The translations under genes were made by a program, and so were the position numbers. Positions 3,656 through 25,105 of a DNA stretch of 64,000 nucleotides are shown here, piece by piece. The notes under the pieces are model-generated. The model searched no databases. It was not told the origin of the DNA and worked only from the letters and a program-made list of their open reading frames with translations. Source of the DNA: Anas platyrhynchos (lineage: Eukaryota); assembly GCF_047663525.1 (NCBI RefSeq), contig NC_092617.1, positions 5,511,550 to 5,575,549 of the forward strand. The letters run 5' to 3'. Numbering within the stretch: the stretch's first letter is position 1; every line of letters begins with the position of its first letter.

Positions 3656-3661
3656 ATTTAT
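3656..3661 (-). terminator. APEX1: Candidate poly(A) signal for APEX1 (AATAAA on the minus strand)
   Basis: TTTATT on the + strand inside the unique island 3560-3760. No AATAAA or ATTAAA lies closer to the APEX1 stop at 4709. This implies a ~1 kb 3'UTR that contains satellite sequence. Confidence 0.3.
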
Positions 3662-3759
3662 TGCCATTTTGGGGGGGTTTTCAGACATTTTCGGGTCGGC
3701 GTTGAACCCAACTCAAGGCGCAAACCCAATGGAAGGACCTAACGGGGTCGTTATGGGGC

Positions 3760-4700
3760 GAGTTATGGGGGCGTTATGGGATGGCCTTATAGGGTCGTTT
3801 TGGGGTCGTTATAGGATGGTCTTATAGGGTCATAATGGGATGAACTTATGGGGTCGTTATAGGACAAACTTATAGGGTCGTTATAGGATGACCTTATAGG
3901 GTCATTAAGGGATGAACTTACAGGGTCATAATGGGATGAACTTATGGGGTCGTTATGGGATGACCTTATGGGGTCATTATGGGACGAATTTATGGGGTCG
4001 TTTTGGGGTCGTTATAGGATGGTCTTATAGGGTCATAATGGGGTGGTCTTATAGGGTCATAATGGGATGAACTTATGGGGTCGTTATGGGATGAACTTAT
4101 GGGGTCACTATAGGATGACCTTATAGGGTCTTTTGGGGTCGTTATAGGATGACCTTATAGGGTCATAATGGGACAAACTTATGGGGTCGTTATGGGATGA
4201 ACTTATAGGGTCAATATAGGTCCATCTTATAGGGTCATTATGGGACGAACTTATGGGGTCTTTTGGGGTCGTTATAGGATGACCTTATAGGGTCATAATG
4301 GGATGAACTTATGGGGTCATTATGGGATGATCTTCTGGGGTCGTTATAGGACAAACTTATAGGGTCGCTATAGGACAACCTTGTAGGGTCGTTTTGGGGT
4401 CGTTATAGGATGACGTTATAGGGTCATTATGGGATGAACTTATGGGGTCATTTTGGGGTCGTTATAGGATGACCTTATAGGGTCATAATGGGATGAAGTT
4501 ATGGGGTCGTTATAGGGTGACTTTATGGGGTCGTTATAGGACAACCTTATAGGGTCGCTATAGGGCAACTTATGGGGTCGCTATGGGACGAACTTACAGG
4601 GCCGTTATAGGACAATGTATGGGGTCGCTATAGGACGAGCTTACGGGACCGTTATAGGACAACCCTATAGGGCCATTTTGGGGCCATTTTAGGACCATTT
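3760..4700. repeat. Minisatellite with a ~21-22 bp unit GGGGTCGTTATAGGATGACCTTATA / GGGTCATAATGGGATGAACTTATG
   Basis: Direct tandem reiteration. Lies between the APEX1 stop and the PIP4P1 3' end. Confidence 0.9.
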
Positions 4701-4708
4701 TGGGGCCG

Positions 4709-5223
4709 TTATATGGCCAGGAACATCTCGACGGGGCAGTGGTCGCTCCCCATCACCTTATTGCGGATCTTACTATCGCACAGCGCCCCCTCCAGGCGTC
4801 GCGACAGGAGGCAATAATCCAACCTCCACCCCACGTTGCGCCCCCGCGCGCCCCCCAAATAGGTCCAAAAAGTGTAGGCGTGGGGCACGGCCGGGTAAAG
4901 GTGCCGAAAAGTATCCAAAAACCCCAACCCCAAAAGCTCCCCGAAACCTTCCCGTTCCTCGTCGGTGAAGCCGGGCGATTTTCGGTTGGCCCGCGGGTGC
5001 CGCAGGTCGATTTCGGCGTGGGCCACGTTGAGGTCGCCGCAGACGGCCACCGGTTTTCGGGCGTCCAAATTGGCCAAAAAGGAGCGGAAGGCGCGGTCCC
5101 AGCGTTGCCGGTAGGGCAAGCGCACCAAGCCCCGGCCCGAATTGGGGACGTAGGCGGCCACCACGTAGAGGGCCGGGAATTCGGCCGTCACCACCCGGCC
5201 TTCCGAGTCGTGCTCGGGGTCAC
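4709..5223 (-). CDS. APEX1: APEX1 last coding exon: the endonuclease/exonuclease/phosphatase fold from [16 protein letters not shown] through CPVEMFLAI*
   Basis: Minus-strand acceptor cccccag|GT at 5224-5226. Translation ...[53 protein letters not shown]...YTFWTY...[10 protein letters not shown]...[13 protein letters not shown] is collinear with human APEX1 residues ~145-318. The catalytic D210/N212/D283/D308/H309 equivalents are present. TAA at 4709-4711. Confidence 0.88.
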
Positions 5224-6660
5224 CTGGGGGGGAGAGAGTGGGGGGTGGCTACCGGGGGGCGACCGGTGGCTACCAAAGGGTTTGGGGTCAACTGGTAGAA
5301 ACTGGAAGGTTTTGGGGTCAACTGGTGGCTACCAAATGGTTTTGGGGTCAATGGTGGCCATTGGAAAGTCTTGGGGTCAATTGGGCAACCAAGGGTCTAC
5401 TGGTGGCTACCAAAGGGTTTTGGGGTAAATGGTGGCCATTGGAAGGTCTTGGGGTCAATAGTGGTGGTTTGGGGTCTACTGGTGGCTACCAAATGGTTTT
5501 GGGGTCAATGGGGCAACCAAGGGTCTACTGGTGGCCATTGAAGGGTTTTGGGGTCAACTGGTGGCTACCAAATGGTTTTGGGGTCAATAAAGGCTATTGA
5601 AGGGTTTTGGGGTCATCTGAAGGGTTTTGGGGTCAATAAAGGCTATTGAAGGGTTTTGGGGTCAACTGGTGGCCACCAAATGGTTTTAGGGTCAATGGGG
5701 CAACCAGGGGTCTACTGGTGGCTATCAAAGGGTTTTGGGGTCAATGGTGGCCATTGAAGGGTTTTAGGGTCAATGGGGCAACCAGGGCTCTACTGGTGGC
5801 TACCAAAAGTTTTTGGGGTCATCCGAAGGGTTTTAGGGTCAATGGTGGCCATCGAAGGGTTTTGGGGTCAATGGGGCAACCAAGGGTCTACTGGTGGCCA
5901 TTGAAGGGTTTTGGGGTCAACTGGTGGCTACCAAATGGTTTTGGGGTCAATAAAGGCTATTGAAGGGTTTTGGGGTCATCTGAAGGGTTTTGGGGTCAAT
6001 AAAGGCTATTGAAGGGTTTTGGGGTCAACTGGTGGCCACCAAATGGTTTTAGGGTCAATGGGGCAACCAGGGGTCTACTGGTGGCTATCAAAGGGTTTTG
6101 GGGTCAATGGTGGCCATTGAAGGGTTTTAGGGTCAATGGGGCAACCAGGGCTCTACTGGTGGCTACCAAAAGTTTTTGGGGTCATCCGAAGGGTTTTAGG
6201 GTCAATGGTGGCCATCGAAGGGTTTTGGGGTCAACTGGTGGCTACCAAAGGGTTTTGGGGTCAATGGTGGCCATTGAAAGGTTTTGGGGTCAATGGGGCA
6301 ACCAAGGGTCTACTGGTGGCTACCAAAGGGTTTTGGGGTCAATAAAGGCTATTGAAGGGTTTTGGGGTCAATGGGGCAACCAAGGGTCTACTGGTGGCTA
6401 CCAAAGGGTTTGGGGTCAATGGTGGCCATTGAAAGGTTTTGGGGTCAATGGGGCAACCAGGGGTCTACTGGTGGCCATCAAAGGGTTTTGGGGTCATCTG
6501 AAGGGTTTTGGGGTCAATAAAGGCTATTGAAGGGTTTTGGGGTCAACTGGTGGCCACCAAAGGGTTTTGGGGTCAATGGTGGCCATTGAAGGGTTTTGGG
6601 GTCAATGGGGCAACCAGGGCTCTACTGGTGGCCACCAAAGGGTCTTGGGGGCAACTGGTG

Positions 6661-6835
6661 GCCAGGAAGGAGCGGAAGGCGCGGTCCCAGCGTTGCCGGT
6701 AGGGCAAGCGCACCAAGCCCCGGCCCGAATTGGGGACGTAGGCGGCCACCACGTAGAGGGCCGGGAATTCGGCCGTCACCACCCGGCCTTCCGAGTCGTG
6801 CTCGGGGTCACCTGGGGGGGAGAGAGTGGGTGGTG
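6661..6835 (-). pseudogene. Duplicated fragment of the APEX1 last exon (acceptor plus first ~135 nt), copy 1 inside the satellite array
   Basis: Near-identical to 5086-5240, including cacctggggggg (the rc of the acceptor cccccaggtg). The ORF track gives [41 protein letters not shown] and then diverges. Confidence 0.85.
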
Positions 6836-7464
6836 GCTAGTGGGGGGCGACCGGTGGCTACCAAAAGGTTTGGGGTCAATTGGTAGCAACTGGAAGGTTT
6901 TAGGGTCTACTGGTGGCTACCAAATGGTTTTGGGGTCAATGGTGGCCATTGGAAGGTCTTGGGGTCAATGGGGCAACCAGGGGTCTACTGGTGGCTACCA
7001 AAAGGTTTTGGGGTCAACCGAAGTGTTTTAGGGTCAATGGTGGCCATCGAAGGGTTTTGGGGTCAACTGGTGGCCACCAAATGGTTTTAGGGTCAATGGG
7101 GCAACCAGGGGTCTACTGGTGGCTATCAAAGGGTTTTGGGGTCAATGGTGGCCATTGAAGGGTTTTGGGGTCAATGGGGCAACCAAGAGTCTACTGGTGG
7201 CCATCGAAGGGTTTTGGGGTCAACTGGTGGGTACCAAAGGGTTTTGGGGTCAATAAAGGCTATTGAAGGGTTTTGGGGGCAATGGGGCAACCAAGGGTCT
7301 ACTGGTGGCTACCAAAGGGTTTTGGGGTCATCGGAAGGGTTTTGGGGTCAATAAAGGCTATTGAAGGGTTTTGGGGTCAATGGTGGCCACCAAAGGGTTT
7401 TGGGGTCAATGGGGCAACCAAGGGTCTACTGGTGGCTACCAAAGGGTTCTGGGGGCAACTGGTG

Positions 7465-7625
7465 GCCAGGAAGGAGCGGAAGGCGCGGTCCCAGCGTTGC
7501 CGGTAGGGCAAGCGCACCAAGCCCCGGCCCGAATTGGGGACGTAGGCGGCCACCACGTAGAGGGCCGGGAATTCGGCCGTCACCACCCGGCCTTCCGAGT
7601 CGTGCTCGGGGTCACCTGGGGGGAA
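7465..7625 (-). pseudogene. Duplicated APEX1 last-exon fragment, copy 2
   Basis: Same ~170-bp segment as copy 1, ORF 7377..7586 (-). Confidence 0.85.
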
Positions 7626-8344
7626 AAGGGGTCAGAGGTGGCTACCAGGGGTTGATGGGTGGCTACCAGAGGGTTTGGGGTCAATGGTGGCCATTGAAGG
7701 GTTTTGGGGTCTACTGGTGGCTACCAAAGGGTTTTGGGGTCAATGGTGGCCATTGAAGGGTTTTGGGGTCATCTGAAGGGTTTTGGGGTCAATGGTGGCT
7801 ACCAAAGGGTTTTGGGGTCATCCAAAGCGTTTTGGGGTCAATAAAGGCTATTGAAGGGTTTTGGGATCAATGGGGCAACCAAGGGTCTACTGGTGGCCAC
7901 CAAAGGGTTTTGGGGTCAATGGTGGCCATTGAAGGGTTTTGGGGTCAATAGTGGTGGTTTGGGGTCTACTGGTGGCTACCAAATAGTTTCGGGGTCAATG
8001 GGGCAACCAAGGGTCTACTGGTGGCCATCGAAGGGTTTTGGGGTCAACTGGTGGCTACCAAAGGGTTTTGGGGTCAATGGTGGTGGTTTGGGGTCAATAA
8101 AGGCTATTGAAGGGTTTTGGGGTCAATGGTGGCTACCAAAGGGTTTTGGGGTCAATGGGGCAACCAAGAGTCTACTGGTGGCTACCAAAGGGTTTTGGGG
8201 TCAATGGTAGCCATCGAAGGGTTTTGGGGTCAACTGGTGGCTACCAAAGTGTTTTGGGGTCAATGGTGGCCATTGAAGGGTTTTGGGGTCAATGGGGCAA
8301 CCAGGGGTCTACTGGTGGCCACCAAAGGGTTCTGGGGGCAACTG

Positions 8345-8515
8345 GTGGCCAGGAAGGAGCGGAAGGCGCGGTCCCAGCGTTGCCGGTAGGGCAAGCGCAC
8401 CAAGCCCCGGCCCGAATTGGGGACGTAGGCGGCCACCACGTAGAGGGCCGGGAATTCGGCCGTCACCACCCGGCCTTCCGAGTCGTGCTCGGGGTCACCT
8501 GGGGGGGAGAGTGGG
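8345..8515 (-). pseudogene. Duplicated APEX1 last-exon fragment, copy 3
   Basis: Same ~170-bp segment as copy 1, ORF 8260..8469 (-). Confidence 0.85.
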
Positions 8516-9959
8516 GGTGGCTACTAGGGGGCGACCGGTGGCTACCAAAAGGTTTGGGGTCAATTGGTAGCAACTGGAAGGTTTTAGGGTCTACTGGTGG
8601 CTACCAAATGGTTTTGGGGTCAATGGTGGCCATTGGAAGGTCTTGGGGTCAATGGGGCAACCAAGAGTCTACTGGTGGCTACCAAAAGGTTTTGGGGTCA
8701 ACCGAAGGGTTTTAGGGTCAATGGTGGCCATTGAAGGGTTTTGGGGTCAACTGGTGGCTACCAAAGGGTTTTGGGGTCAATGGTGGTGGTTTGGGGTCAA
8801 TAAAGGCTATTGAAGGGTTTTGGGGTCAATGGTGGCTACCAAATAGTTTCGGGGTCATTGGGGCAACCAAGGGTCTACTGGTGGCTACCAAAGGGTTTTG
8901 GGGTCAATGGTGGCCATTGAAGGGTTTTGGGGTCAATAGTGGTGGTTTGGGGTCTACTGGTGGCTACCAAATAGTTTCGGGGTCAATGGGGCAACCAAGG
9001 GTCTACTGGTGGCTACCAAAGGGTTTTGGGGTCAATGGTGGCTACCAAATGGTTTTGGGGTCATCTGAAGGGTTTTGGGGTCAATAAAGGCTATTGAAGG
9101 GTTTTGGGGTCAATGGTGGCCACCAAAGAGTTTTGGGGTCAATGGGGCAACCAAGGGTCTACTGGTGGCCATTGAAGGGTTTTGGGGTCAAGTGGTGGCT
9201 ACCAAAGGGTTTTGGGGTCAATGGTGGTGGTTTGGGGTCAATAAAGGCTATTGAAGGGTTTTGGGGTCAATGGGGCAACCAGGGATCTAATGGTGGCTAC
9301 CAAAGGGTTTTGGGGTCATCGGAAGGGTTTTGGGGTCAATGGTGGCCATTGAAGGGTTTTGGGGTCAACTGGTGGCCACCAAAGGGTTTTGGGGTCAATG
9401 GGGCAACCAAGGGTCTACTGGTGGCTACCAAAGGGTTTTGGGGTCAAGGGTGGCTACCAAATGGTTTTGGGGTCATCGGAAGGGTTTTGGGGTCAATGGT
9501 GGCAATTGAAGGGTTTTGAGGTCTACTGGTGGCTACCAAAGGGTTTTGGGGTCATCGGAAGGGTTTTGGGGTCAATGGTGGCAATTGAAGGGTTTTGAGG
9601 TCTACTGGTGGCTACCAAATGGTTTTGGGGTCATCGGAAGGGTTTTGGGGTCAATGGTGGCAATTGAAGGGTTTTGAGGTCTACTGGTGGCTACCAAAGG
9701 GTTTTGGGGTCAATAAAGGCTATTGAAGGGTTTTGGAGTCAATGGGGCAACCAAGAGTCTACTGGTGGCTACCAAAGGGTTTTGGGGTCAATTGGTGGCT
9801 ACCAAAGGGTTTTGGGGTCAATAAAGGCTATTGAAGGGTTTTGGGGGCAATGGGGCAACCAGGGGTCTACTGGTGGCTACCAAAGGGTTTTGGGGTCATC
9901 CGAAGGGTTTTGGGGTCAATGATGGTAGTTTGGGGTCAACAGGTGGCCACTGAAGGGTT

Positions 9960-11260
9960 TTGGGGTCCCCTACAAGATATTTATGGGGTCGGGGGGTCAC
10001 CTGGTGATTTTGGGGTAGATTTTGGGTCAATTTAGCTCCAATTATGAAGGTTCTAGGTCCACCAACGTACATTTTGAACCCCGGGGAGATCTTTGGGATT
10101 TTGGGGCCGTTTTTTGGGATTTTGGGGTGGGTTTTGGGATCCCCTACTAGATATTTATGGGGTTTTGGGGTCACCTGGTGGTTTTGGGGTAGATTTTGGG
10201 TCAATTTAGCTCCAATTATGAAGGTTCTAGGTCCACCAATGTACATTTTGAACCCCTGGGAGACTTTGGGATTTTGGGGTCGTTTTTTGGGGTTATGGGG
10301 TCATTTTTGGGGTCCCCTACAAGATATTTATGGGGTCGAGGGGTCACCTGGTGATTTTGGGGTGCATTTTGGGTCAATTTAGCTCCAATTATGAAGGTTC
10401 TAGGTCCACCAACGTACGTTTTGAACCCCTGGGAGACTTTGGGATTTTGGGGCCTTTTTTTGGGATTTTGGGGTGGGCTTTTCGGGTTATGGGGTCGGCT
10501 TTTGGGGTCCCCTACAAGATATTTATGGGGTCGAGATGTCCCCTGGTGGTTTGGGGTAGATTTTGGGTCAATTTAGCTCCAATTGTGAAGGTTCTAGGTC
10601 CACCAACGTCTGTTTTGAACCCCAGGGAGTTACGGGGTCGTTTTTTGGGATTTTGGGGTCATTTTTGGGGGTTATGGGGTCATTTTTGGGGTCTCCTACA
10701 AGATATTTATGGGGTTTTGGGGTCACCTGGTGATTTTGGGGTAGATTTTGGGTCAATTTAGCTCCAATTATGAAGGTTCTAGGTCCACCAACGTATGTTT
10801 TGAACCCCTGGGAGACTTTGGGATTTTGGGGCCGTTTTTTGGGATTTTGGGGTCGTTTTTTGGGATTATGGGGTCGGCTTTTGGCATCCCCTACAAGATA
10901 TTTATGGGGTCGGGGGGGTCTGCTTGTAGTTTTGGGTCCATTTTGGGTCAATTTAGCTCCAATTATAAAGGTTCTAGGTCCACCAATGTACGTTTTGAAC
11001 CCCGGGGAATTTTGGGGCCGTTTTTTGGGATTTTGGGGTGGGGTTTTGGGGTTATGGGGTCGGTTTTTGGGATCCCCTACAAGATACTTATGGGGTCGAG
11101 GTGTCCCCTGGTGGTTTCGGGGTAGATTTTGGGTCAATTTAGCTCCAATTATGAAGGTTCTAGGTCCACCAACGTACGTTTTGAACCCCTGGGAGACTTT
11201 GGGATTTTGGGGCCGTTTTTGGGGATTTTGGGGTCGTTTTGGGGGATTTTGGGGTCATTT
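9960..11260. repeat. Tandem repeat with a ~178-bp unit, 7 copies (…TTTGGGTCAATTTAGCTCCAATTATGAAGGTTCTAGGTCCACCAACGTACATTTTGAACCCC…)
   Basis: Units start near 10020, 10200, 10380, 10560, 10740, 10960 and 11130. The unit is longer and more complex than its neighbours. It could derive from an unrecognised interspersed element. Confidence 0.8.
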
Positions 11261-11272
11261 TTGGGGTCTCAC

Positions 11273-11465
11273 CGATGCCGTAGGTGACGCTGAGGGGCTC
11301 TTGGCGGGCCAGCAGCCCCACCCCGCTGTAGCCCGGGCGCCCCTCGGGGCTGGCCCAAAATTGGTGGGGGAGCCCCGAAAGCGCCCGAATTTCGGGGGGC
11401 ACCGCGGGGGCCGCGCATTTGGTCTCCTGCAGGCACAGCACGTCCGGGGCCTCCTCCTGCACCCA
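11273..11465 (-). CDS. APEX1: APEX1 middle coding exon ([17 protein letters not shown]…SVTYGIG)
   Basis: Minus-strand acceptor ggggccag|TGG and donor ATCG|GTGAGA. The 193 nt enter in phase 0 and leave in phase 1, which matches the next exon. Aligns with human [65 protein letters not shown]. The catalytic E96 equivalent (LQETK) is present. Confidence 0.88.
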
Positions 11466-12244
11466 CTGGCCCCAAAAAAGCCCGAATTTAACCCAAAATG
11501 GTCCGGGGGGGGAACCCAAAAGAAGACAGGCAGAGACAGTCCAGACCCAACCCCAAAAATTGCCCCAAAATGTCCCAAATCCTAGAAATAACCCAAATCC
11601 TATAAAAACCCCAAATCCTGTAAATATCCCAAATCCCATAAATCCCCCAAAATCCCATAAATAAATCCCAAATCCCCCCAAATCCCATAAATCGTCCCAA
11701 ATCCCATAAATCCCAATCCCATAAACCACCCAAAACCCTATAAATCACCCCAAATCCCATAAATCGCCCCAAATCCCATAAATTGCCCCAAATCCCATAA
11801 ATTCCAACCCCATAAACCCCCCAAAACCCTATAAATAACCCCCAATTTCCCCAAATCCCATAAATTGCCCCAAATCCCCCAAATTCCAATCCCATAAATC
11901 CCCCAAAACCCTAAAAATCCCCCCCAATTTCCCCAAATCCCATAAATCGCCCCAAATCCCATAAATCACCCCAAATCCCATAAATTCCAATCCCATAAAT
12001 CCCCCAAATCCCATAAATCACCCCCAATTCCCCAAATCCCATAAATTGCCCCAAATCCCCCAAATTCCAATCCCATAAATCCCCCAAAACCCTAAAAATC
12101 ACCCCCAAGTTCCCCCAAATCCCATAAATCCCCCAAATCCCATAAATTCCAATCCCATAAATCCCCTAAAACCCCATAAATCGCCCCAAATCCCCAAAAT
12201 CCCAATCCCCTAAATCCCCCAAAACCCTACAAATCCCCCCCAAA

Positions 12245-12420
12245 TCCCACATCCAACACTTCCGGGGCCTCCTCCTGCACCCACTGGCCCCAAAAACGCC
12301 CGAAATTAACCCAAAATGGTCCGGGGGGGGAACCCGGAAAAAGACGGATAGAGGTTGTCCAGAAACAATCCCAAAAATCGCCCCAAAATGTCCCAAATCC
12401 TAGAAATGGCCCAAATCCTA
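12245..12420 (-). pseudogene. Duplicated APEX1 middle-exon 5' edge (acceptor, ~31 nt of exon WVQEEAPDV, ~150 nt of upstream intron), copy 1 of 6
   Basis: cccacatccaacacttccggggcctcctcctgcacccactggccccaaaaacgcccgaa matches the original at 11430-11500. Minus ORFs end …WVQEEAPEVLDVGFGGDL. Confidence 0.8.
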
Positions 12421-12954
12421 TAAATATCCCAAATCCTATAAAAATCCCAAATCCCATAAATATCCCAAATCCTATAAATACCCCAAAATCCCATAAATAA
12501 ACCCCAAAACCCCCGAAATCCCCGAAATCCCGCAAATCCCATAAATTCCAACCCCATAAATCCCCCAAAACCCTAAAAATCCCCCCCAAATCCCATAAAT
12601 CCCCCAAAATCCCATAAATTCCAATCCCATAAACCCCCCAAAACCCCATAAATAAACCCCAAATCCCCCCAAAACCCAGAAATCCCCCAAATCCCATAAA
12701 TTCCAATCCCATAAATCCCCCAAAACCCTATAAATCCCCCCCAAATCCCATAAATCCCCCAAAATCCCATAAATAAACCCCAAATCCCATAAATCGCCCC
12801 AAATCCCATAAATTGCCCCAAATCCCCCAAATTCCAATCCCATAAATCCCCCAAAAAAACATAAATAAACCCCAAATCCCCCCAAAACCCATAAATCACC
12901 CCAAATCCCCAAAATCCCAATCCCATAAATCCCCCAAAACCCTATAAATCCCCC

Positions 12955-13140
12955 CCAAATCCCACATCCAGCACGTCCGGGGCCTCCTCCTGCACCCACT
13001 GGCCCCAAAAACGCCCGAATTTAACCCAAAATGGTCGGGGGGGAACACCCGGAAAAAGACGGATAGAGGTTGTCCAGAAACAATCCCAAAAATTGCCCCG
13101 AAATGTCCCAAATCCTAGAAATAACCCAAATCCTATAAAA
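12955..13140 (-). pseudogene. Duplicated APEX1 middle-exon 5' edge, copy 2
   Basis: ORF 12942..13190 (-) ends [18 protein letters not shown]. Confidence 0.8.
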
Positions 13141-13624
13141 ACCCTAAATCCTATAAATATCCCAAATCCCATAAATACCTCAAATCCCATAAATACCCTA
13201 AAACCTCATAAATACCCCAAAATCCCATAAAGAAACCCCAAACCCCCCCAATTTCCCCAAATCCCAGAAATCCCGCAAATCCCATAAATTCCAATCCCAT
13301 AAATCCCCCAAAACCCTAAAAATCCCCCCCAAATCCCATAAATCCCCCCAAATCCCATAAATTGCCCCAAATCCCCCAAATTCCAATCCCATAAATCCCC
13401 CAAAACCCTAAAAATCCCCCCCAATTTCCCCAAATCCTATAAATCACCCCAAATCCCATAAATCGCCCCAAATCCCATAAATTGCCCCAAATCCCATAAA
13501 TTCCAATCCCATAAATCCCCAAAAACCCCCTAAATAAACCCCAAATCCCCCCAAAACCCATAAATCGCCCCAAATCCCATAAATCCCAATCCCATAAATT
13601 CCCCAAAACCCTATAAATCCCCCC

Positions 13625-13800
13625 CAAATCCCACATCCAGCACGTCCGGGGCCTCCTCCTGCACCCACTGGCCCCAAAAACGCCCGAATTTAACCCAAAA
13701 TGGTCAGGGGGGAACACCCGGAAAAAGACGGACAGAGGTTGTCCAGAAACAATCCCAAAAATTGCCCCAAAATGTCCCAAATCCTAGAAATAACCCAAAT
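13625..13800 (-). pseudogene. Duplicated APEX1 middle-exon 5' edge, copy 3
   Basis: Sequence cacgtccggggcctcctcctgcacccactggcc at ~13640. Confidence 0.75.
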
Positions 13801-14139
13801 CCTATAAAAACCCCAAAACCCTATAAATCCCCCAAATCCCATAAATAAACCCCAAATACCCCCAAATCCCATAAATCGCCCCAAATCCCCCAAATTCCAA
13901 TCCCATAAACCCCCCAAAACCCTAAAAATCCCCCCAAATCCCATAAATACCCCAAAATCCTATAAATCACCCCCAAATCCCATAAATTCCCCCAAATCCC
14001 CCAAATTCCAATCCCATAAATCCCCCAAAAAAACATAAATAAACCCCAAATCCCCCCAAAACCCATAAATCACCCCAAATCCCCAAAATCCCAATCCCAT
14101 AAACCCCCCAAAACCCTACAAATCCCCCCCAAATCCCAC

Positions 14140-14300
14140 ATCCAGCACGTCCGGGGCCTCCTCCTGCACCCACTGGCCCCAAAAACGCCCGAAATTAACC
14201 CAAAATGGTCGGGGGGGAACACCCGGAAAAAGACGGATAGAGGTTGTCCAGAAACAATCCCAAAAATTGCCCCAAAATGTCCCAAATCCTAGAAATAACC
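14140..14300 (-). pseudogene. Duplicated APEX1 middle-exon 5' edge, copy 4
   Basis: ORF 14116..14583 (-) ends [18 protein letters not shown]. Confidence 0.8.
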
Positions 14301-14754
14301 CAAATCCTATAAAAACCCCAAATCCTATAAATATCCCAAATCCCATAAATACCCCAAAATCCCATAAATAAACCCCAAATCCCATAAGTTGCCCCAAATC
14401 CCATAAATTCCAACCCCATAAACCCCCCAAAACCCTATAAATAACCCCCAATTTCCCCAAATCCCATAAATTGCCCCAAATCCCCCAAATTCCAATCCCA
14501 TAAATCCCCCAAAACCCTAAAAATCCCCCCCAATTCCCCCAAATCCCATAAATCACCCCAAATCCCATAAATTCCAATCCCATAAATCCCCCAAAACCCT
14601 AAAAATCCCCCCAAATCCCATAAATCGCCCCAAATCCCATAAATTGCCCCAAATCCCCCAAATTCCAATCCCATAAATCCCCCAAAACCCTAAAAATCCC
14701 CCCCAATTTCCCCAAATCCCATAAACCCCCCCAAACCCTATAAATCCCCCCCAA

Positions 14755-14930
14755 ATCCCACATCCAGCACGTCCGGGGCCTCCTCCTGCACCCACTGGCC
14801 CCAAAAACGCCCGAAATTAACCCAAAATGGTCCGGGGGGAACACCCGGAAAAAGACGGATAGAGGTTGTCCAGAAACAATCCCAAAAATTGCCCCGAAAT
14901 GTCCCAAATCCTAGAAATGGCCCAAATCCT
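14755..14930 (-). pseudogene. Duplicated APEX1 middle-exon 5' edge, copy 5
   Basis: ORF 14738..15517 (-) ends [18 protein letters not shown]. Confidence 0.8.
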
Positions 14931-15469
14931 ATAAAAACCCTAAATCCCATAAATGTCCCAAATCCCATAAATACCCCAAAATCACATAAATACCCCAAAA
15001 TCCCATAAATAAACCCCAAATCCCCCCAAATCCCATAAATCCCAGAAATTCCAATCCCATAAATCCCCCAAAACCCTATAAATCCCCCACAAATCCCATA
15101 AATACCCCAAAATCCCATAAATAAACCCCAAATCCCATAAATCACCCCAAATCCCATAAATCGCCCCAAATCCCCCAAATTCCAATCCCATAAATCCCCA
15201 AAAACCCCATAAATAAACCCCAAATCCCATAAATCCCATAAATCGCCCCAAATCCCATAAATTCCAATCCCATAAATCCCCAAAAACCCTAAAAATCCCC
15301 CCCAATTTCCCCAAATCCCATAAATCACCCCAAATCCACCCCAAAATCCCATAAATAAACCCCAAATCCCATAAATAAACCCCAATTCCCCCAAATCCCA
15401 TAAATCGCCCCAAATCCCCCAAATTCCAATCCCATAAACCCCCCAAAACCCTATAAATCCCCCCCAAAT

Positions 15470-15650
15470 CCCACATCCAGCACGTCCGGGGCCTCCTCCT
15501 GCACCCACTGGCCCCAAAAACGCCCGAATTTAACCCAAAATGGTCGGGGGGGAACACCCGGAAAAAGACGGATAGAGGTTGTCCAGAAACAATCCCAAAA
15601 ATTGCCCCGAAATGTCCCAAATCCTAGAAATGGCCCAAATCCTATAAAAA
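15470..15650 (-). pseudogene. Duplicated APEX1 middle-exon 5' edge, copy 6
   Basis: ORF 15451..15942 (-) ends [18 protein letters not shown]. Confidence 0.8.
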
Positions 15651-16439
15651 CCCTAAATCCTATAAATATCCCAAATCCCATAAATCCCCCAAAATCCCAT
15701 AAATAAACCCCAAATCCCATAAATCGCCCCAAATCCCATAAATCGCCCCAAATCCCATAAATTCCCCCAAATCCCCAAAACCCATAAACCCCCAAAGCCC
15801 CCAAATTCCCCAAATCCTCCCAAATTCCCTCAAAATCCCCCAAACCCCCAAAACCCCATAAATTCCCCAAAACCCCAAAACCCCATAAATTCCCCAAAAC
15901 CCCATAAATTACCCCAAACCCACAAAACCCCCCAAAAAACATAAATTACCCCAAAATCCCCAAAACCCCATAAATAACCCTAAAATCCTCAAAACCCCAT
16001 AAACCCCCAAATCCCCTAAAACCCCCAAAACCTATAAATTCCCATAAACCCCCAAAAAAACATAAATTCCCCCCAAACCCCCAAAACCCCCAAAACCCCA
16101 TAAATTACCCCAAAATCCCCAAAACCCCATAAACCCCCCAAATTCCATAAACCCCCAAACCCCATAAATTCCCCCAAACCCCAAAAACCCCATAAAACCC
16201 CTAAATCCCCCAAAACCCCAAACTTCCCCCAAAATCTCCAAAACGCCCTAAATCCCCCAAAACCCCAAAAACCCCATAAATTCCCCCAAACCCCAAAAAC
16301 CCCATAAACCCCCCAAATCCCCTAAACCCCCAAAACCCCCAAAACCCCATAAATTCCCTCAAACCCCAGAATCCCCATAATTGTCCCAAAACCCCCAAAA
16401 CCCCCAAAACCCCCTAAATCCCCCAAAACCCCAAAATCC

Positions 16440-17440
16440 CCCTTTTTCACCCCAAATCCTATAAACCCCATAAATCCCCTAAATCCTTTCCCCCCCCAAA
16501 CCCCCCTCAAACCCTTGAATCCCCCCCCAACCCCCACCCCCCTTAACCCCCCCTTCCCCCCCCAACCCTTCCAATTGTGAAACCGCCCGAATTTGCCCAA
16601 AATCCCCCTTTTTCACCCCAAATCCTATAAACCCCATAAATCCCCTAAATCCCCTAAATCCTTTACCCCCCCCAACCCCCCTTAAACCCCCCAAACCCCC
16701 CAGCCCCCACCCCCCTTAACCCCCAGCTCCCCCCCTTTCCCCCCCAAATCCCAAACCCCCCAAATTTGCCCAAAATCCCCCTTTTTCACCCCAAATCCTA
16801 TAAACCCCAAAATCCCCTAAATCCTTTACCCCCCCCAAACCCCCTTAAACCCCCCTAAACCCCCCCAAAACCCCACCCCCCTTAACCCCCAGCTCCCCCC
16901 CAACCCCTCCAATTGTGAAACCGCCCGAATTTGCCCAAAATCCCCCTTTTTCACCCCAAATCCTATAAACCCCCAAAATCCCCTAAATCCTTTACCCCCC
17001 CCAAACCCCCCTTAAACCCCCTAAACCCCCCCAACCCCCACCCCCCTTAACCCCCAGCTCCCCCCCTTTCCCCCCTGAATCCCAAACCACCCAAATTTGC
17101 CCAAAATCCCCCTTTTTCACCCCAAATCCTATAAACCCCCCAAATCCCCTAAATCCTTTCCCCCCCCAAAAACCCCCTTAAACCCCCTAAACCCCCCCAA
17201 AACCCCACCCCCCTCACTCCTCCCTTCCCCCCCTTTCCCCCCCAGCCCCGAAACCGCCCGAATTTGCCCAAAATCCCCCTTTTTCGCCCCAAATCCTATA
17301 AACCCCAAAATCCCCTAAATCCTTTACCCCCCCCAAACCCCCTTAAACCCCCCTAAACCCCCCAACCCCCACCCCCCTTAACCCCCCCTTCCCCCCCCAA
17401 CCCCTCCAATTGTGAACCCGCCCGAATTTGCCCAAAATCG
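16440..17440. repeat. Tandem repeat with a ~165-170 bp unit, 6 copies, derived from the intron flank next to the APEX1 first-coding-exon donor
   Basis: Each unit carries ccgcccgaatttgcccaaaatccccctttttcaccccaaatcctataaacc. This matches the genuine intron 5' end at 17406-17470 (ccgcccgaatttgcccaaaatcgcggtttttcgccccaaaacctacctgcag), but the GT donor is degenerate in the copies. Confidence 0.8.
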
Positions 17441-17463
17441 CGGTTTTTCGCCCCAAAACCTAC

Positions 17464-17610
17464 CTGCAGCCCCCCCTTTTTGATCCAGGCCCGCAGCCCC
17501 CCCACGTTCCAGGACGCCAGGCGCAGCGACGCCGCCGCCCCCCCCGGGGACAGCGCCCGCACGGGGGGGTCCTCGTAGGGACACGGCGACGGGGGGCGCT
17601 TCGGGGGCAC
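17464..17610 (-). CDS. APEX1: APEX1 first coding exon ([M/V][48 protein letters not shown])
   Basis: Donor CAG|GTAGGT at minus 17464/17463. Aligns to human MPKRGKK…[41 protein letters not shown]. The codon at the conserved Met position is GTG (plus 17608-17610), preceded by tatcccccc-AG, so the 5' boundary and the start codon are unresolved. Confidence 0.7.
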
Positions 17611-21180: not shown

Positions 21181-21575
21181 ACTGGTCCATACTGGTCGCA
21201 CTCACCCTCCTTGTCCCCGCCGTTCTCCTTCCGGGCTCGCTTGGGCATGGCTCCTCGTGGCCCCGCCCCCTGCGCGCCCCGCAGCCAATCAGCGCCCGCC
21301 GCGGGGAGCCCGGAGCCAATCAGCGCCCGCCGCGGGCCGGGCCCGGAGCCAATCAGCGGCGGCCGCGCGCGGGGGGCCCGGAGCGTGGCGCGCGGCGGCG
21401 GCGGCCGGAAGCGGAAGCGAGCGAGGGCCGGAAGCGGAAGCGCCTCAAACCGGAAGGGGAGGAGCTTCGAACCCGGAAGCGGAAGCGGAGAAGCTCCGGA
21501 GGCGGCGGAGGAGGCGGCGGAGCGGCGCGGGAGGCGGCGGTGACGTCAGAAGTGACGTCAGAAGTGACGTCAGCG
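21180..21575. promoter_or_regulatory. Bidirectional CpG-island promoter for OSGEP (+) and APEX1 (-): GC box, three NF-Y CCAAT boxes, ETS (CCGGAAGC) repeats, three tandem CRE (TGACGTCA) sites next to the OSGEP ATG, and a minus-strand splice donor
   Basis: ccccgccccc at 21261. gcagccaatcagcg at 21285, 21316 and 21349. ccggaagcggaagcg repeated at 21405-21490. tgacgtca at 21541, 21553 and 21565. Minus-strand AGG|GTGAGT donor (plus ctcaccct, 21201-21208) facing APEX1. Confidence 0.7.
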
Positions 21576-21690
21576 ATGCCGACGGTGCTGGGGCTGGAGG
21601 GCTCGGCCAACAAGGTGGGGGCGGGGCTGGTGCGCGACGGCCGCGTCCTCAGCAACCGCCGCGCCACCTACGTCACGCCCCCCGGGCACG
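21576..21690 (+). CDS. OSGEP: OSGEP (Kae1/TsaD family, KEOPS t6A tRNA threonylcarbamoyladenosine transferase) exon 1
   Basis: ATG at 21576. [38 protein letters not shown](G), versus human [39 protein letters not shown]. Donor G|GTGAGC, phase 1. Confidence 0.92.
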
Positions 21691-21699
21691 GTGAGCGGA

Positions 21700-22745
21700 A
21701 GTGACGTCACTCGGAACGCCCCCCGTGACGTCACTTCCCCCCCCCCGGTCCCCTCCGTGTGACGTCATTGCTTCAGATCCCCCCCTATAGGCCCGTTAGG
21801 CCTCGCCCCGGTGACGTCACGGACACTTCCTGTGACGTCACGGGGGCCGTGACCCCGCCCCCGTGACCTCTGACCCCGCCCCGTGACCTTTGACCCCTCC
21901 CTGTGACCTTTGACCCCCCCCATCCTGACCCCTGACCCCCTGGGACCCGTCACCCCCCTGTGGCCGATGCCCCCCCCTTGTGACCCCTCCCCCGTGACCT
22001 TTGACCCCAAGTGACCCCGGTGACCCCTGCCCGTGACCTTTGACCCCGCGGTGACCCCTGACCCCCTCCCCATGACCTTTGACCCCCCCATGACCCCCAA
22101 CCCCCCATGACCCACGTGACCAATTCCCCCTTGACCCCTGCCCCCCGTGACCCCTGACCCCTTTGTGACCCCGCCCCCGTGACCTTTGACCCCACCGTGA
22201 CCCCAACCGTGACCCCTGACCCCCCAGTGACCCCTCCCCATGACCTTTGACCCCCCCATGACCCCTAACCCCCCCGTGACCCACGTGACCAATTCCCCCT
22301 TGACCCCTTTCCCCCGTGACCCCTGACCCCTCTGTGACCCCACCCCATGACCTTTGACCCCACCGTGACCCTGAGGGTGACCTTTGACCCCTGGGTGACC
22401 CCTTACCGTGACCTTTGACCCCCCCATGACCCCTAACGCCCCTATGACCCACGTGACCAATTCCCCCCTTGACCCCTGCCCCCCGTGACCCCTGACCCCT
22501 TGTGACCCCACCCCGTGACCTTTGACCCCGCCGTGACCCTGACCGTGACCTTTGACCCCTGGGTGACCTTTGACCCCCCTCCCCATGACCTTTGACCCCC
22601 CCATGCCCCCTAACCCCCCTGTGACCCAATACCCACTTGACCCCTGCCCCCGTGACCCCTGACCCCTCTGTGACCCCACCCCGTGACCTTTGACCCCGCC
22701 GTGACCCTGAGGGTGACCTTTGACCCCTGGGTGACCTTTGACCCC
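21700..22745. repeat. OSGEP intron 1: five CRE sites in the first 150 bp, then a ~13-15 bp C-rich minisatellite (GTGACCCCTGACCCC / GTGACCTTTGACCCC)
   Basis: tgacgtca at about 21703, 21727, 21762, 21814 and 21833. More than 15 copies of TGACCTTTGACCC (the rc GGGTCAAAGGTCA is a perfect DR1 half-site pair). Confidence 0.85.
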
Positions 22746-22749
22746 GCAG

Positions 22750-22869
22750 GCTTCGCCCCCGGCCCCACGGGGCGGCACCACCGGGGGGCGGTGCTGGGGC
22801 TGGTGGCCGACGCCCTGCGGGAGGCCGGGCTCGGGCCCCGCGACATCGACGCCGTCGCCTTCACCCGCG
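22750..22869 (+). CDS. OSGEP: OSGEP exon 2
   Basis: Acceptor accccgcag|G. (G)FAPGPTGRHHRGAVLGLVADALREAGLGPRDIDAVAFTR(G), versus human [41 protein letters not shown]. Donor G|GTCAGT. Confidence 0.9.
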
Positions 22870-22874
22870 GTCAG

Positions 22875-25105
22875 TGGCGTGTGTTTGGCGTGTCCTTAGC
22901 GTGTGCTTAGCATGTGCTTAGCATGTTCTTAGGGTGTGCTTGGTGTGGCCTTAACATGGCCTTAATGTGTCCTTTGTATGTCCTTAGTGTCTCCTTAACG
23001 TGTCCTTAGCATGTCCTTAGCGTGTCCTTGGCATGTGCTTGGTGTGTGCTTGGCGTGTCCTTAGCATGGTCTTAGTGTGTGCTTCATGTGGCCTTGGAAT
23101 GGCTTTAATGTGTCCTTTGTATGTCCTTAGGTTGGCCTTAATCTGTTCTTAGTGTGTGCTTAGTGTGTGCTTAGCATGTCCTTAGCATGTGCTTAGTGTG
23201 TCCTTAGTGTGTGCTTAGCATGTGCTTCATGTGGCCTTGGTGTGGCCTTAATGTGTCCTTTGTATGTCCTTAGATTGGCCTTAATCTGTCCTTAGCGTGT
23301 CCTTAATATGTGCTTAGCGTGTTCTTAGCATGTGCTTAGTGCGTGCTTAGTGTGTGCTTAGCGTGTCCTTGGAGTGTGCTTAGTATGTGCTTAGTATGTT
23401 CTTAGCGTGTGCTTGATGTGTGCTTCGTGTGTCCTTGGTGTGGCCTTAATATGACCTTTGTATGTCCTTAGGTTGTCCTTAATCTGTCCTTAGTGTCTCC
23501 TTAATATGTGCTTAGCGTGTTCTTAGTGTGCCCTTAGTGTGTGCTTGGTGTGTGCTTGGCGTGTGCTTAGCATGTGAATAGCATGTGCTCAGTGTGTCCT
23601 TCATGTGGCCTTAACATGGCCTTAATGTGTCCTTTGTATGTCCTTAGGTTGTCCTTAATCTGTCCATGGTGTCTCCTTAACATGTCCTTAGCATGTCCTT
23701 AGCATGTTCTTAGCGTGTCCTTAGTATGGTCTTAGCATGTGCTTCATGTGGCCTTGGTGTGGCCTTGGTGTGGCCTTAATGTGGCCTTTGTATGTCCTTA
23801 GGTTGGCCTTAATCTGTCCTTAGCATGTCCTTAGTGTGTGCTTAGCGTGTTCTTAGCATGTGCTTGGCGTGTCCTTAGTATGTGCTTAGCATGTGCTTGG
23901 TGTGTGCTTCGTGTGGCCTTGGTGTGGCCTTAATGTGGCCTTTGTATGTCCTTAGGTTGGCCTTAATCTGTCCTTAGCGTGTGCTTAGCATGTCCTTAGC
24001 ATGTCCTTAGCATGTGCTTAGTGTGTCCTTAGTGTGTGCTTGGTGTGTGCTTAGCGTGTGCTTCGTGTGGCCTTGGTGTGGCCTTAATGTGTCCTTTGTA
24101 TGTCCTTAGGTTGGCCTTAATCTGTCCTTAGCGTGTCCTTAGTGTGTGCTTAGCGTGTTCTTAGCATGTGCTTAGTGTGTTCTTAGTGTGTGCTTGGCGT
24201 GTGCTTGGTGTGGCCTTGGTGTGGCCTTAACATGTCCTTAATGTGGCCTTTGTATGTCCTTAACCAGTCCTTAGCGTCTCCTTAACATGTGCTTAGCATG
24301 TCCTTAGCGTGTGCTTAGTGTGTGCTTGGTGTGTGCTTCATGTGGCCTTGGTGTGGCCTTAATGTGTCCTTTCTATGTCCTTAGGTTGGCCTTAATCAGT
24401 CCATGGTGTCTCCTTAATGTGTCCTTAGCATGTCCTTAGCGTGTTCTTAGTGTGTCTTTAGAGTGTGCTTAGTATGTTCTTAGCATGTGCTTGGTGTGTC
24501 CTTGGTGTGGCCTTAACATGTCCTTTGTATGTCCTTAGGTTTTCCTTATTTTGTCCTTAGTGTGTCCTAAGTGTGTACTTAGCGTGTCCTTAGCGTGTCC
24601 TTATCATGTGCTTGGCATGTTCTTAGTGTGTGCTTGGTGTGTGCTTGGTGTGTGCTTCGTGTGGCCTTGGTGTGTCCTTAATGTGGCCTTTGTATGTCCT
24701 TAGTGTCTCCTTAACATGTCCTTAGCATGTTCTTAGCATGTGCTTGGCATGTTCTTGGCATGTGCTTAGCATGTGTTTCATGTGGCCTTGGTGTGGCCTT
24801 AACATGTCCTTAGTATGGCCTTGGTGTGGCCTTAACCTGGCCTTAACATGTCCTTTGCATGTCCTTATGTTGGCCTTAATCTGTCCTTAGCGTGTCCTTA
24901 GTGTGTGCTTAGCGTGTTCTTAGAATGACCTTAGTGTGTCCTTAGTATGTTCTTAGCATGTGCTTGGCATGTGCTTGGCGTGTGCTTCATGTGGCCTTGG
25001 CGTGGCCTTAATGTGTCCTTTGTATGTCCTTAGGGTGTCCTTAATCTGTCCTTAGCATGTCCTTAATATGTGCTTAGCGTGTTCTTAGCGTGTTCTTAGC
25101 GTGTC
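22875..25105. repeat. OSGEP intron 2: ~10-11 bp GTGTCCTTAG/GTGTGCTTAG minisatellite organised in ~160-180 bp higher-order units
   Basis: catgtggccttggtgtggccttaatgtgtcctttgtatgtccttaggttggccttaatctgtccttag recurs about 13 times. The same short motif fills the 95-bp intron 4 (26359-26453). Confidence 0.9.

What the first reader, a model, noticed from the sequence alone, without database searches (positions are those of the whole stretch)
5230..9960. Satellite array in the APEX1 last intron carries three copies of the genuine exon's acceptor plus ~135 nt of coding sequence
Segments 6661-6835, 7465-7625 and 8345-8515 are near-identical to 5086-5240, the 3' splice site plus the first 45 codons of the terminal APEX1 exon. 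They sit at ~800-900 bp spacing inside an unrelated 31-bp satellite. Each copy offers an intact cccccag|GT acceptor in the transcribed orientation, so they are potential decoy 3' splice sites or alternative terminal exons. The pattern looks like a higher-order repeat that captured an exon edge.
Basis: seen in the sequence. Interest (0 to 1): 0.65.

Follow-up and report, generated by a model that had tools for sequence, protein, structure and literature searches.

The report
Exon-edge copies in duck APEX1 intron
The last intron of the mallard APEX1 DNA-repair gene really does hold three copies of the final exon's splice acceptor plus 145 bases of coding sequence, but this is a duck example of "exon stuttering", recently described in chicken, and nothing suggests the copies are used.

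Summary
The window is the mallard (Anas platyrhynchos) OSGEP–APEX1 locus, with APEX1 on the minus strand. Three copies (exon parts 6667-6811, 7471-7615, 8354-8498) are 100% identical to the first 145 nt of the terminal exon (5079-5223). Each keeps the AG and a pyrimidine-rich tract, inside a 29-30-bp minisatellite.

The same thing happens in the preceding intron, which holds six copies of the exon-3 acceptor edge. An independent pintail assembly carries two terminal-exon copies with the identical exon/satellite junction, so the structure is not an assembly artefact and predates the mallard–pintail split. Goose and emu APEX1 carry other exon-edge copies; owl and cormorant carry none.

This matches "sequence/exon stuttering" reported for chicken dot chromosomes (Hron et al. 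2026, PMC12954441). It is best explained as local tandem duplication with one breakpoint inside the exon (TGGCCA microhomology), followed by unequal exchange.

The acceptors are intact. However, no 5' splice site or poly(A) signal follows the copies, the RefSeq protein uses the genuine exons, and no database protein matches a decoy-spliced isoform. Use as decoys remains untested.

Verdict: real, a new member of a known kind, moderate-to-low interest.

The parts
4709..5223 (-). Genuine terminal coding exon of APEX1 (aa 128-298 plus stop). Its first 145 nt (5079-5223) is the source of the copies. The acceptor AG is at 5225-5224.
   Evidence: tblastn with human and duck APEX1; translation to stop.
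5226..9960 (.). Minisatellite array filling the 3' three-quarters of the last intron. Monomer 29-30 bp (GGTGGCTACCAAAGGGTTTTGGGGTCAAT) with 49/78/157-bp super-periods. G-rich on the + strand, with 14 canonical G4 motifs.
   Evidence: TRF; G4 regex count.
6659..6830 (-). Copy 1. Exon part 6667-6811 (145 nt, 100%), junction 6659-6666 (TGGCCA microhomology after a TT>CC mismatch), AG at 6813-6812, identical intron flank up to 6830.
7463..7623 (-). Copy 2. Exon part 7471-7615, AG at 7617-7616. Its intron flank is 'type B' (ctgaccccttttccccccag), the type that flanks the genuine exon in pintail.
8346..8511 (-). Copy 3. Exon part 8354-8498, AG at 8500-8499, type A flank.
5468..6253 (.). Young 363-bp x2.2 duplication (97% identity) inside the array between the genuine exon and copy 1. 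It accounts for part of the longer 1588-bp spacing there.
   Evidence: TRF.
9955..11268 (.). 173-195-bp repeat array filling the 5' part of the last intron, up to 4 nt from the exon-3 donor. Four units carry the 12-mer GGGGTCACCTGG, identical to the exon-4 acceptor junction.
   Evidence: TRF; the DNA search found 8 matches against 0.09 expected.
11273..11465 (-). Genuine APEX1 exon 3 (donor TCG|GTGAGA). Its first 30 nt plus about 130-170 nt of upstream intron is the source of the six copies in intron 2.
12254..15680 (-). Six copies of the exon-3 acceptor edge inside the 19-bp satellite of intron 2. Exon parts are 12254-12283, 12969-12998, 13638-13667, 14143-14172, 14765-14794 and 15478-15507, each preceded by ...ggggccag. 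In frame they read [18 protein letters not shown].
17464..17610 (-). APEX1 exon 2. A 166-bp x6.2 array (16430-17462) starts right after its donor.
21206..21248 (-). First coding exon of APEX1 ([14 protein letters not shown]). OSGEP starts head-to-head at 21576 on the + strand.

Best explanation
These are by-products of the local repeat instability of bird dot-chromosome genes, called 'sequence/exon stuttering'.

Proposed sequence of events:
1. A tandem duplication had one breakpoint 145-153 nt inside the terminal exon, at a TGGCCA microhomology with the intronic minisatellite monomer. The other breakpoint lay in the minisatellite. This created a unit of [satellite + acceptor + exon edge] upstream of the intact exon.
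2. Unequal crossing-over or replication slippage between units then changed the copy number (2 in pintail, 3 in mallard). It can also swap which intron flank lies next to the complete exon.
3. The minisatellite within the units keeps turning over quickly.

Only partial exon copies persist, because duplicating a whole internal exon would change the mRNA. The copies are most likely not recognised as exons, since nothing defines their 3' end, and are neutral or slightly deleterious passengers.

Shown: the sequence relationships, the junction shared across species, the copy numbers, the flank types, and the absence of a downstream 5' splice site or poly(A) signal.
Inferred: the duplication mechanism, neutrality, and lack of splicing use.
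For: 1. Copies include intron flank, the AG and the exon edge, in tandem orientation in the adjacent intron.
2. The junction shows microhomology: genuine CTCCTTTTTGGCCAATTTGG against copy CTCCTTCCTGGCCACCAGTTG.
3. The identical junction and tail peptide ([10 protein letters not shown](D/N)PLV) occur in an independent Anas acuta assembly with 2 copies.
4. The acceptor flank of the genuine pintail exon is 88% identical to mallard decoy copy 2 and 78% to the mallard genuine flank. This fits exchange within the shared 145 nt.
5. The same architecture occurs at other exon edges:
   - mallard exon-3 5' edge x6
   - pintail exon-2 5' edge x4, exon-2 3' edge x3 and exon-4 3' end x3
   - goose exon-4 5' edge x1 with a different breakpoint, and exon-4 3' end x3
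   - emu exon-3 3' edge x2
6. Orthologous mallard and pintail intron sequence is only about 80-85% identical while most exons are 97-100%, so repeat turnover is rapid.
7. Hron et al. 2026 (PMC12954441) describe exactly this in chicken: 115 genes and 1,345 partial exon copies. Exon parts are 20-187 bp, sources lie within 1 base of the exon border, there are 1-44 copies, and splice sites are included. The events are concentrated on dot chromosomes.
8. There is no downstream donor or poly(A) signal and no decoy-spliced protein in the databases.
Against: - No read-level or RNA-level data could be examined, so the mallard copy number and the non-use of the acceptors are unverified.
- The exon fragments are 100% identical while the adjacent 200 nt of flank is 79-95% identical. 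This could mean ongoing gene conversion from the selected exon rather than simple duplication plus satellite turnover.
- The dot-chromosome location is inferred from synteny (chicken OSGEP on chr34 in the paper's supplement), not shown for duck.
- The mechanism of stuttering itself is unknown; the paper only speculates.
Confidence: 0.85

Rival explanations
1. The copies act as decoy 3' splice sites or alternative terminal exons that modulate APEX1 output. For example, they might give a truncated 206-aa isoform, or a kinetic delay in splicing of the last intron.
For: - The acceptors are intact and as pyrimidine-rich as the genuine one.
- Both flank types serve as the genuine acceptor in one species or the other.
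- The copies are transcribed before the genuine acceptor.
- The reading frame stays open for 79 codons.
- Hron et al. note that such copies 'create potential alternatively spliced transcripts'.
Against: - There is no poly(A) signal or 5'-splice-site-like sequence after the copies.
- The RefSeq protein is canonical and no database protein carries the decoy tail.
- Copy number and position are not conserved between mallard, pintail and goose, and one pintail copy is frameshifted.
- Owl and cormorant have no copies.
Confidence: 0.08
2. Assembly artefact: false tandem duplication or mis-joining of reads within a hard-to-assemble repeat.
For: - The region is a G4-rich minisatellite of the kind known to trouble HiFi assembly.
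- The exon fragments are perfectly identical.
- An older Ensembl duck model (P0010) shows a decoy-type flank directly upstream of complete exon 3. This suggests assemblies disagree in this gene.
Against: - The same junction occurs in an independent assembly of another species.
- Flanks of the copies differ from each other by 5-20%, unlike a simple false duplication.
- Analogous structures are found in goose and emu.
- The chicken equivalents were checked against raw nanopore reads by Hron et al..
Confidence: 0.04
3. The exon fragments are kept identical by ongoing gene conversion with the genuine exon (concerted evolution), rather than being merely young.
For: - There are 0 differences in 145-153 nt among the four mallard copies, against 5-21% in the adjacent 200 nt.
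- The duplication predates the mallard-pintail split.
- Flank-type swapping occurs between species.
- Mallard-pintail mismatches in exon 4 are 1/145 in the shared part against 13/370 in the rest.
Against: - Species divergence in most exons is only about 0-1%, so 0-1 changes in 145 nt is also expected without conversion.
- The high flank divergence can be explained by minisatellite turnover alone.
- A pintail-specific substitution in the genuine exon near the junction is not shared by the pintail copies.
Confidence: 0.35

Closest known systems
Exon stuttering / sequence stuttering of chicken dot-chromosome genes (Hron et al., Genome Biol Evol 2026, PMC12954441)
   Same: - Partial copies of the lateral part of a coding exon, starting at the exon border and including the splice site and adjacent intron.
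- The copies are repeated in tandem in the neighbouring, minisatellite-filled intron.
- The source exon is left intact.
- Structures differ between related species.
- Exon-part length (145 and 30 nt), copy number (3 and 6) and span (3.4 and 4.1 kb) fall within the reported ranges.
   Different: - Different species and order (duck, Anseriformes) and a gene not named in that paper. Its neighbour OSGEP is listed for chicken.
- The 145-153-nt exon part is near the top of the reported range (median 36 bp).
- The copies sit about 0.8-1.6 kb apart within a much shorter-period minisatellite.
- The cross-species data here add a shared junction, microhomology and flank swapping, which the paper did not analyse.
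Regular higher-order repeats of satellite DNA (e.g. primate alpha satellite)
   Same: A multi-monomer unit containing a distinctive segment recurs along an array of short monomers.
   Different: Unit lengths are unequal (804, 883 and 1588 bp). Units are only 80-87% identical outside the exon fragment. The array is intronic and only 4.7 kb long.
Recursive splice sites / RS-exons in long vertebrate and Drosophila introns
   Same: A strong 3' splice site is immediately followed by GT (cccccag|GTGACC). Splicing to it could in principle regenerate a donor and leave no trace in the mRNA.
   Different: The regenerated site TCG|GTGACC scores -0.85 bits on a simple donor PWM, against 3.1-6.1 for the gene's real donors. 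No conservation is seen.
Partial-exon or exon tandem duplications from unequal or microhomology-mediated recombination (as in human disease genes)
   Same: DNA-level tandem duplication with a breakpoint in an exon and short microhomology at the junction.
   Different: Here it is recurrent, multi-copy, embedded in minisatellites, tolerated in an essential gene, and seen at several exon edges of the same gene in several species.

Membership tests
Exon stuttering (Hron et al. 2026) | Partial copy of the lateral part of a coding exon whose source lies within about 1 base of the exon border, spanning the exon-intron border and including the splice site | tested here: met
   Copies begin exactly at the first exon base and include the AG plus 6-17 identical intron bases, then a similar flank. 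The same holds for the exon-3 copies.
Exon stuttering (Hron et al. 2026) | Copies lie in the adjacent (proximal) intron, in the same orientation, as a cluster of tandemly related units | tested here: met
   Three copies lie in the last intron at 1588, 804 and 883-bp steps. Six lie in intron 2 at 505-818-bp steps. All are on the sense strand.
Exon stuttering (Hron et al. 2026) | Exon part 20-187 bp; 1-44 copies; span 112-23,555 bp | tested here: met
   Terminal-exon copies: 145-153 nt, 3 copies, about 3.4 kb. Exon-3 copies: 30 nt, 6 copies, about 4.1 kb.
Exon stuttering (Hron et al. 2026) | Host intron heavily covered by imperfect tandem repeats | tested here: met
   TRF covers essentially all of 5226-11268 and 11577-17462.
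Exon stuttering (Hron et al. 2026) | Source exon and coding sequence remain intact | tested here: met
   The spliced product is 100% identical to RefSeq duck APEX1.
Exon stuttering (Hron et al. 2026) | Location on a dot chromosome | not testable with these tools
   The evidence is indirect only. Chicken OSGEP, the head-to-head neighbour, is on dot chromosome 34 in the paper's supplement. The duck protein maps to a 6.3-Mb record. The whole window is satellite-rich.
Exon stuttering (Hron et al. 2026) | Extensive length and copy-number variation within a species | not testable with these tools
   Only between-species variation is shown: 3 copies in mallard against 2 in pintail, and different edges copied in each species.
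Alternative terminal exon | A 3' splice site followed by a coding or UTR segment and a poly(A) signal | tested here: not met
   No AATAAA/ATTAAA occurs on the sense strand between 11268 and 4709. The only one nearby is at 3662.
Cassette (poison) exon | A 3' splice site and a downstream 5' splice site bounding the segment | tested here: not met
   There is no GT site with PWM of at least 2 bits between a copy and the next acceptor, apart from the AG|GT itself. The PWM is approximate; MaxEnt was not available.
Recursive splice site | A 3' splice site juxtaposed to a sequence that regenerates a competent 5' splice site after the first step | tested here: not met
   The regenerated TCG|GTGACC scores -0.85 bits, against 3.1-6.1 for real donors.
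Processed pseudogene / retrocopy fragment | Lacks intron sequence, with an RNA-mediated origin | tested here: not met
   Copies carry the intron flank and acceptor upstream of the exon part.
Regular satellite higher-order repeat | Equal-length multi-monomer units far more alike (95-100%) than their monomers | tested here: not met
   Units of 804, 883 and 1588 bp are 80-87% identical outside the exon fragment. Monomers show 62-77% matches.

The most novel reading that the evidence does not exclude
The shared 145-nt exon edge may act as a recombination anchor. On this reading, unequal exchange or gene conversion between decoy units and the genuine exon continually reassigns which intron flank serves as the functional acceptor. 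This would explain why type A is genuine in mallard and type B in pintail. The copies would be real, competent 3' splice sites that the spliceosome must bypass. That would make duck APEX1 a natural system for studying how terminal-exon definition suppresses perfect upstream acceptors, with low-level decoy use affecting the output of an essential repair gene.
Probability: 0.15. Interest if true: 0.55.

Novelty: new member of a known kind. Interest (0 to 1): 0.33.

Why it matters
The finding extends exon stuttering, described so far mainly in chicken, to Anseriformes and a palaeognath. It shows several independent events at one essential gene.

The mallard-pintail pair gives mechanistic clues that the chicken survey did not extract:
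- a junction with microhomology that is shared across species
- copy-number change after speciation
- swapping of the acceptor flank between 'decoy' and 'genuine' units
- non-repetitive exon fragments that stay unchanged while the surrounding minisatellite diverges by 15-20%

Practically, such copies can mislead gene prediction, as in the old Ensembl duck model that reads through the intron. They can also mislead read mapping and splice-junction calling in bird dot-chromosome genes.

Tried and rejected
1. Searching 5.8 billion proteins for a decoy-spliced isoform. A 99-aa chimeric query retrieved almost no candidates and was uninformative. The full 206-aa hypothetical isoform returned only canonical APEX1.
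2. Exact-protein look-ups for the mallard (P0001), goose isoform X3 (P0004) and ptarmigan (P0016) were not on record. The cluster members P0122 and P0125 were used instead.
3. The Logan mRNA-like contigs L005-L007 turned out to be from another anatid (83-96% nucleotide identity). They confirm the canonical junctions but do not test the mallard decoys.
4. Recursive splicing was rejected on donor score.
5. An alternative terminal exon or poison exon was rejected for lack of a poly(A) signal or donor.
6. An exon-copy screen of OSGEP exons in the window found nothing convincing, only an 18-nt match at 22560, although chicken OSGEP is listed as stuttering.
7. A retrocopy origin was rejected because intron flank is included.
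8. MaxEntScan scoring was not possible because no model files were available. A consensus PWM recalled from memory was used and is approximate.


Full report
**Identity of the locus.** tblastn with human APEX1 places its last three coding exons on the minus strand, at about 17577-17464, 11468-11268 and 5224-4712.
- A search of the large protein collection with the conceptually spliced product returned RefSeq XP_071885831.1, APEX1 of Anas platyrhynchos, at 100% identity.
- With that protein, the four coding exons map to 21248..21206, 17610..17464, 11465..11273 and 5223..4709.
- OSGEP lies head-to-head on the plus strand from 21576 to about 33250, as in human.

**The observation.** The first 145 nt of the terminal exon (5079-5223), its AG and a few intron bases recur three times.
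- Ungapped exact identity covers 6667-6830, 7471-7623 and 8354-8511.
- blastn reports 153 nt at 98.7% identity, E = 2.8e-75, for each copy.
- All copies are in the transcribed orientation and keep cccccag|GTGACC, with 90-95% pyrimidines at -22..-3.
- They sit in an array of 29-30-bp monomers with 49/78/157-bp super-periods, spanning 5226-9960.

**Anatomy of the copies.**
- At the distal end of each copy the genuine CTCCTTTTTGGCCAATTTGG is replaced by CTCCTTCCTGGCCACCAGTTG. The exon and the satellite monomer (…TGGCCACCA…) share TGGCCA at the breakpoint.
- In frame, each copy would encode 48 APEX1 residues, then 31 satellite-derived residues and a stop.
- Between the copies, satellite segments of 659, 738, 1443 and 1462 bp are only 80-87% identical in their best register.
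- The 200 nt upstream of the acceptors are 79-95% identical, while the exon fragments show no difference at all.
- A 363-bp x2.2 duplication at 97% identity (5468-6253) shows that still younger duplications occur within the array.

**The same phenomenon elsewhere in the gene.** Six copies of the exon-3 acceptor edge lie in the 19-bp satellite of intron 2.
- Each comprises about 130-170 nt of intron, the AG and 30 nt of exon.
- First exon bases are at 12283, 12998, 13667, 14172, 14794 and 15507; the genuine one is at 11465.
- The copies are 88-97% identical to each other and 76-81% identical to the genuine flank.
- Arrays of 166-bp and 173-195-bp units begin right after the donors of exons 2 and 3.

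**Related species.**
- *Pintail.* An independent assembly of Anas acuta (L002, GCA_963932015.1) has two copies of the terminal-exon edge with the identical junction and tail, one of them with a 1-nt deletion. The founding duplication therefore predates the mallard-pintail split and cannot be an artefact of this assembly. Copy number has changed since.
- *Flank swapping.* The intron flank next to the complete exon in pintail (…ctgacccttttcccccccag) is of the type found at mallard decoy copy 2 (88% identity over 40 nt). It is less like the mallard genuine flank (78%). The simplest reading is unequal exchange within the shared 145 nt. It also means both flank types work as real acceptors in one species or the other.
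- *Other pintail copies.* Four copies of the exon-2 acceptor edge, three of the exon-2 donor edge (with an intact CAG|GTAGGT) and three of the 3' end of the terminal exon.
- *Swan goose (L003).* One copy of the terminal-exon acceptor edge with a different breakpoint (about 45 nt) carrying goose-specific substitutions, plus three copies of the exon's 3' end.
- *Emu (L008).* Two copies of the exon-3 donor edge.
- *Little owl (L001) and great cormorant (L009).* None.
- *Rates.* Orthologous mallard and pintail intron sequence aligns at only about 80-85% identity, whereas exons are 97-100% identical.

**Could the copies be used in splicing?**
- A simple donor PWM, built from consensus frequencies recalled from memory, scores the gene's real donors at 6.1, 6.0 and 3.1 bits.
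- Between each copy and the next acceptor there is no GT site of at least 2 bits, other than the AG|GT at the acceptor itself.
- The site that would be regenerated by joining exon 3 to a copy (TCG|GTGACC) scores -0.85 bits.
- No AATAAA or ATTAAA occurs on the sense strand in the whole last intron.
- The copies therefore have good acceptors but nothing to define an exon end.
- The RefSeq model is canonical. The hypothetical 206-aa decoy-spliced isoform has no counterpart among 5.8 billion proteins, which include RefSeq and assemblies of public sequencing runs.
- Three mRNA-like contigs from another anatid show the canonical junctions.
- This is negative evidence only. RNA data for the mallard could not be examined.

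**Comparison with the literature.** Hron et al. (Genome Biol Evol 2026, PMC12954441; preprint September 2025) describe 'sequence stuttering' of chicken dot-chromosome genes and its subset 'exon stuttering'.
- Lateral parts of exons, with the adjacent splice site, are copied through the neighbouring intron.
- They report 115 genes, 236 introns and 1,345 copies, with exon parts of 20-187 bp (median 36).
- Sources lie within 1 base of the exon border, with 1-44 copies and spans of 112-23,555 bp.
- Coding regions stay intact, intron lengths are highly polymorphic, and structures differ between related species.
- They note the copies create 'potential alternatively spliced transcripts'.
- Chicken OSGEP on chr34 is in their per-gene supplement. 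APEX1 and duck stuttering are not mentioned.
- All sequence-level defining features are met here. The dot-chromosome location and intraspecific polymorphism could not be tested.

**Verdict.** The finding is real and correctly described, and is a new example of a recently published phenomenon. The most likely origin is a microhomology-associated tandem duplication with a breakpoint in the exon. Unequal exchange among units then followed, with rapid turnover of the embedded minisatellite. G-quadruplex motifs are frequent: 18 on the + strand of the last intron and 63 on the - strand of intron 2. This is in line with the replication-stress idea raised by Hron et al. The functional reading (decoy or alternative terminal exons) is not supported by sequence context or annotation, but it is not excluded.

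Noticed in passing
window 12254-15680 (minus strand): Six copies of the APEX1 exon-3 acceptor edge lie inside the 19-bp satellite of intron 2. Each comprises 30 nt of exon, the AG and about 130-170 nt of intron. This is the same phenomenon as the finding, but outside its coordinates.
   Followed up: yes
window 9955-11268: A 173-195-bp repeat array abuts the exon-3 donor. Four of its units carry GGGGTCACCTGG, the exact 12-mer of the exon-4 acceptor junction (8 hits in the window against 0.09 expected). These may be older, decayed exon-edge copies.
   Followed up: partly
window 16430-17462: A 166-bp x6.2 array starts immediately after the exon-2 donor and is built from the donor-proximal intron sequence. 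The copies have ATAGG instead of GTAGG, so no donor is copied in mallard. Pintail has three copies that do include 52 nt of exon 2 and the donor.
   Followed up: partly
window 5468-6253: A 363-bp x2.2 duplication at 97% identity lies inside the minisatellite. It is much younger than the surrounding 80-87%-identical units.
   Followed up: no
L002 (Anas acuta) 9753-14340 and 21558-24751: Pintail APEX1 carries four copies of the exon-2 acceptor edge, three of the exon-2 donor edge, and three of the terminal exon's last 90-125 nt including the stop codon. None of these is present in the mallard window.
   Followed up: partly
L008 (emu) 9364-9426 and 10409-10471; L003 (goose) 30688-30735, 33253-35220: Emu has two copies of the exon-3 donor edge. 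Goose has one short copy of the exon-4 acceptor edge with its own breakpoint and three copies of the exon-4 3' end. Owl (L001) and cormorant (L009) have none.
   Followed up: partly
window 4709-5223 vs L002 20099-20613: Mallard-pintail mismatches in the terminal exon are uneven: 1 in the 145 nt shared with the copies against 13 in the remaining 370 nt. Other exons differ by 0-1%. This is unexplained. It may relate to the 3'-end copies in pintail, or to conversion.
   Followed up: no
protein P0010 (Ensembl model, older duck assembly): The model reads through intron satellite. It shows the decoy-type flank peptide (…CFWTTSIRLFPGVPPRPFWVNFGRFWGQ) directly upstream of the complete exon 3, unlike this window's genuine flank. 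This is either a collapsed assembly or a real allele produced by unequal exchange.
   Followed up: no
window 3660-4708: A 24-bp satellite (…TATAGGGTC…) begins right after the APEX1 stop codon. The only sense-strand AATAAA is at 3662, about 1 kb downstream, so the 3' UTR probably runs through satellite. The anatid mRNA contigs L005-L007 also end in this satellite.
   Followed up: partly
window 5226-17463: G4 motifs are strand-asymmetric: 18 on the + (template) strand in the last intron and 63 on the - (sense) strand in intron 2, with none on the opposite strands.
   Followed up: no
window 33300-64000: The rest of the window is almost entirely strand-asymmetric minisatellite arrays, producing long spurious ORFs in several frames. 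No further genes were identified with the checks made.
   Followed up: no
protein P0004 (Anser cygnoides isoform X3): The goose isoform lacks [12 protein letters not shown]. This corresponds to use of the internal CTGCAG|GAGACC acceptor 36 nt into exon 3, just beyond the 30-nt breakpoint of the mallard exon-3 copies.
   Followed up: no
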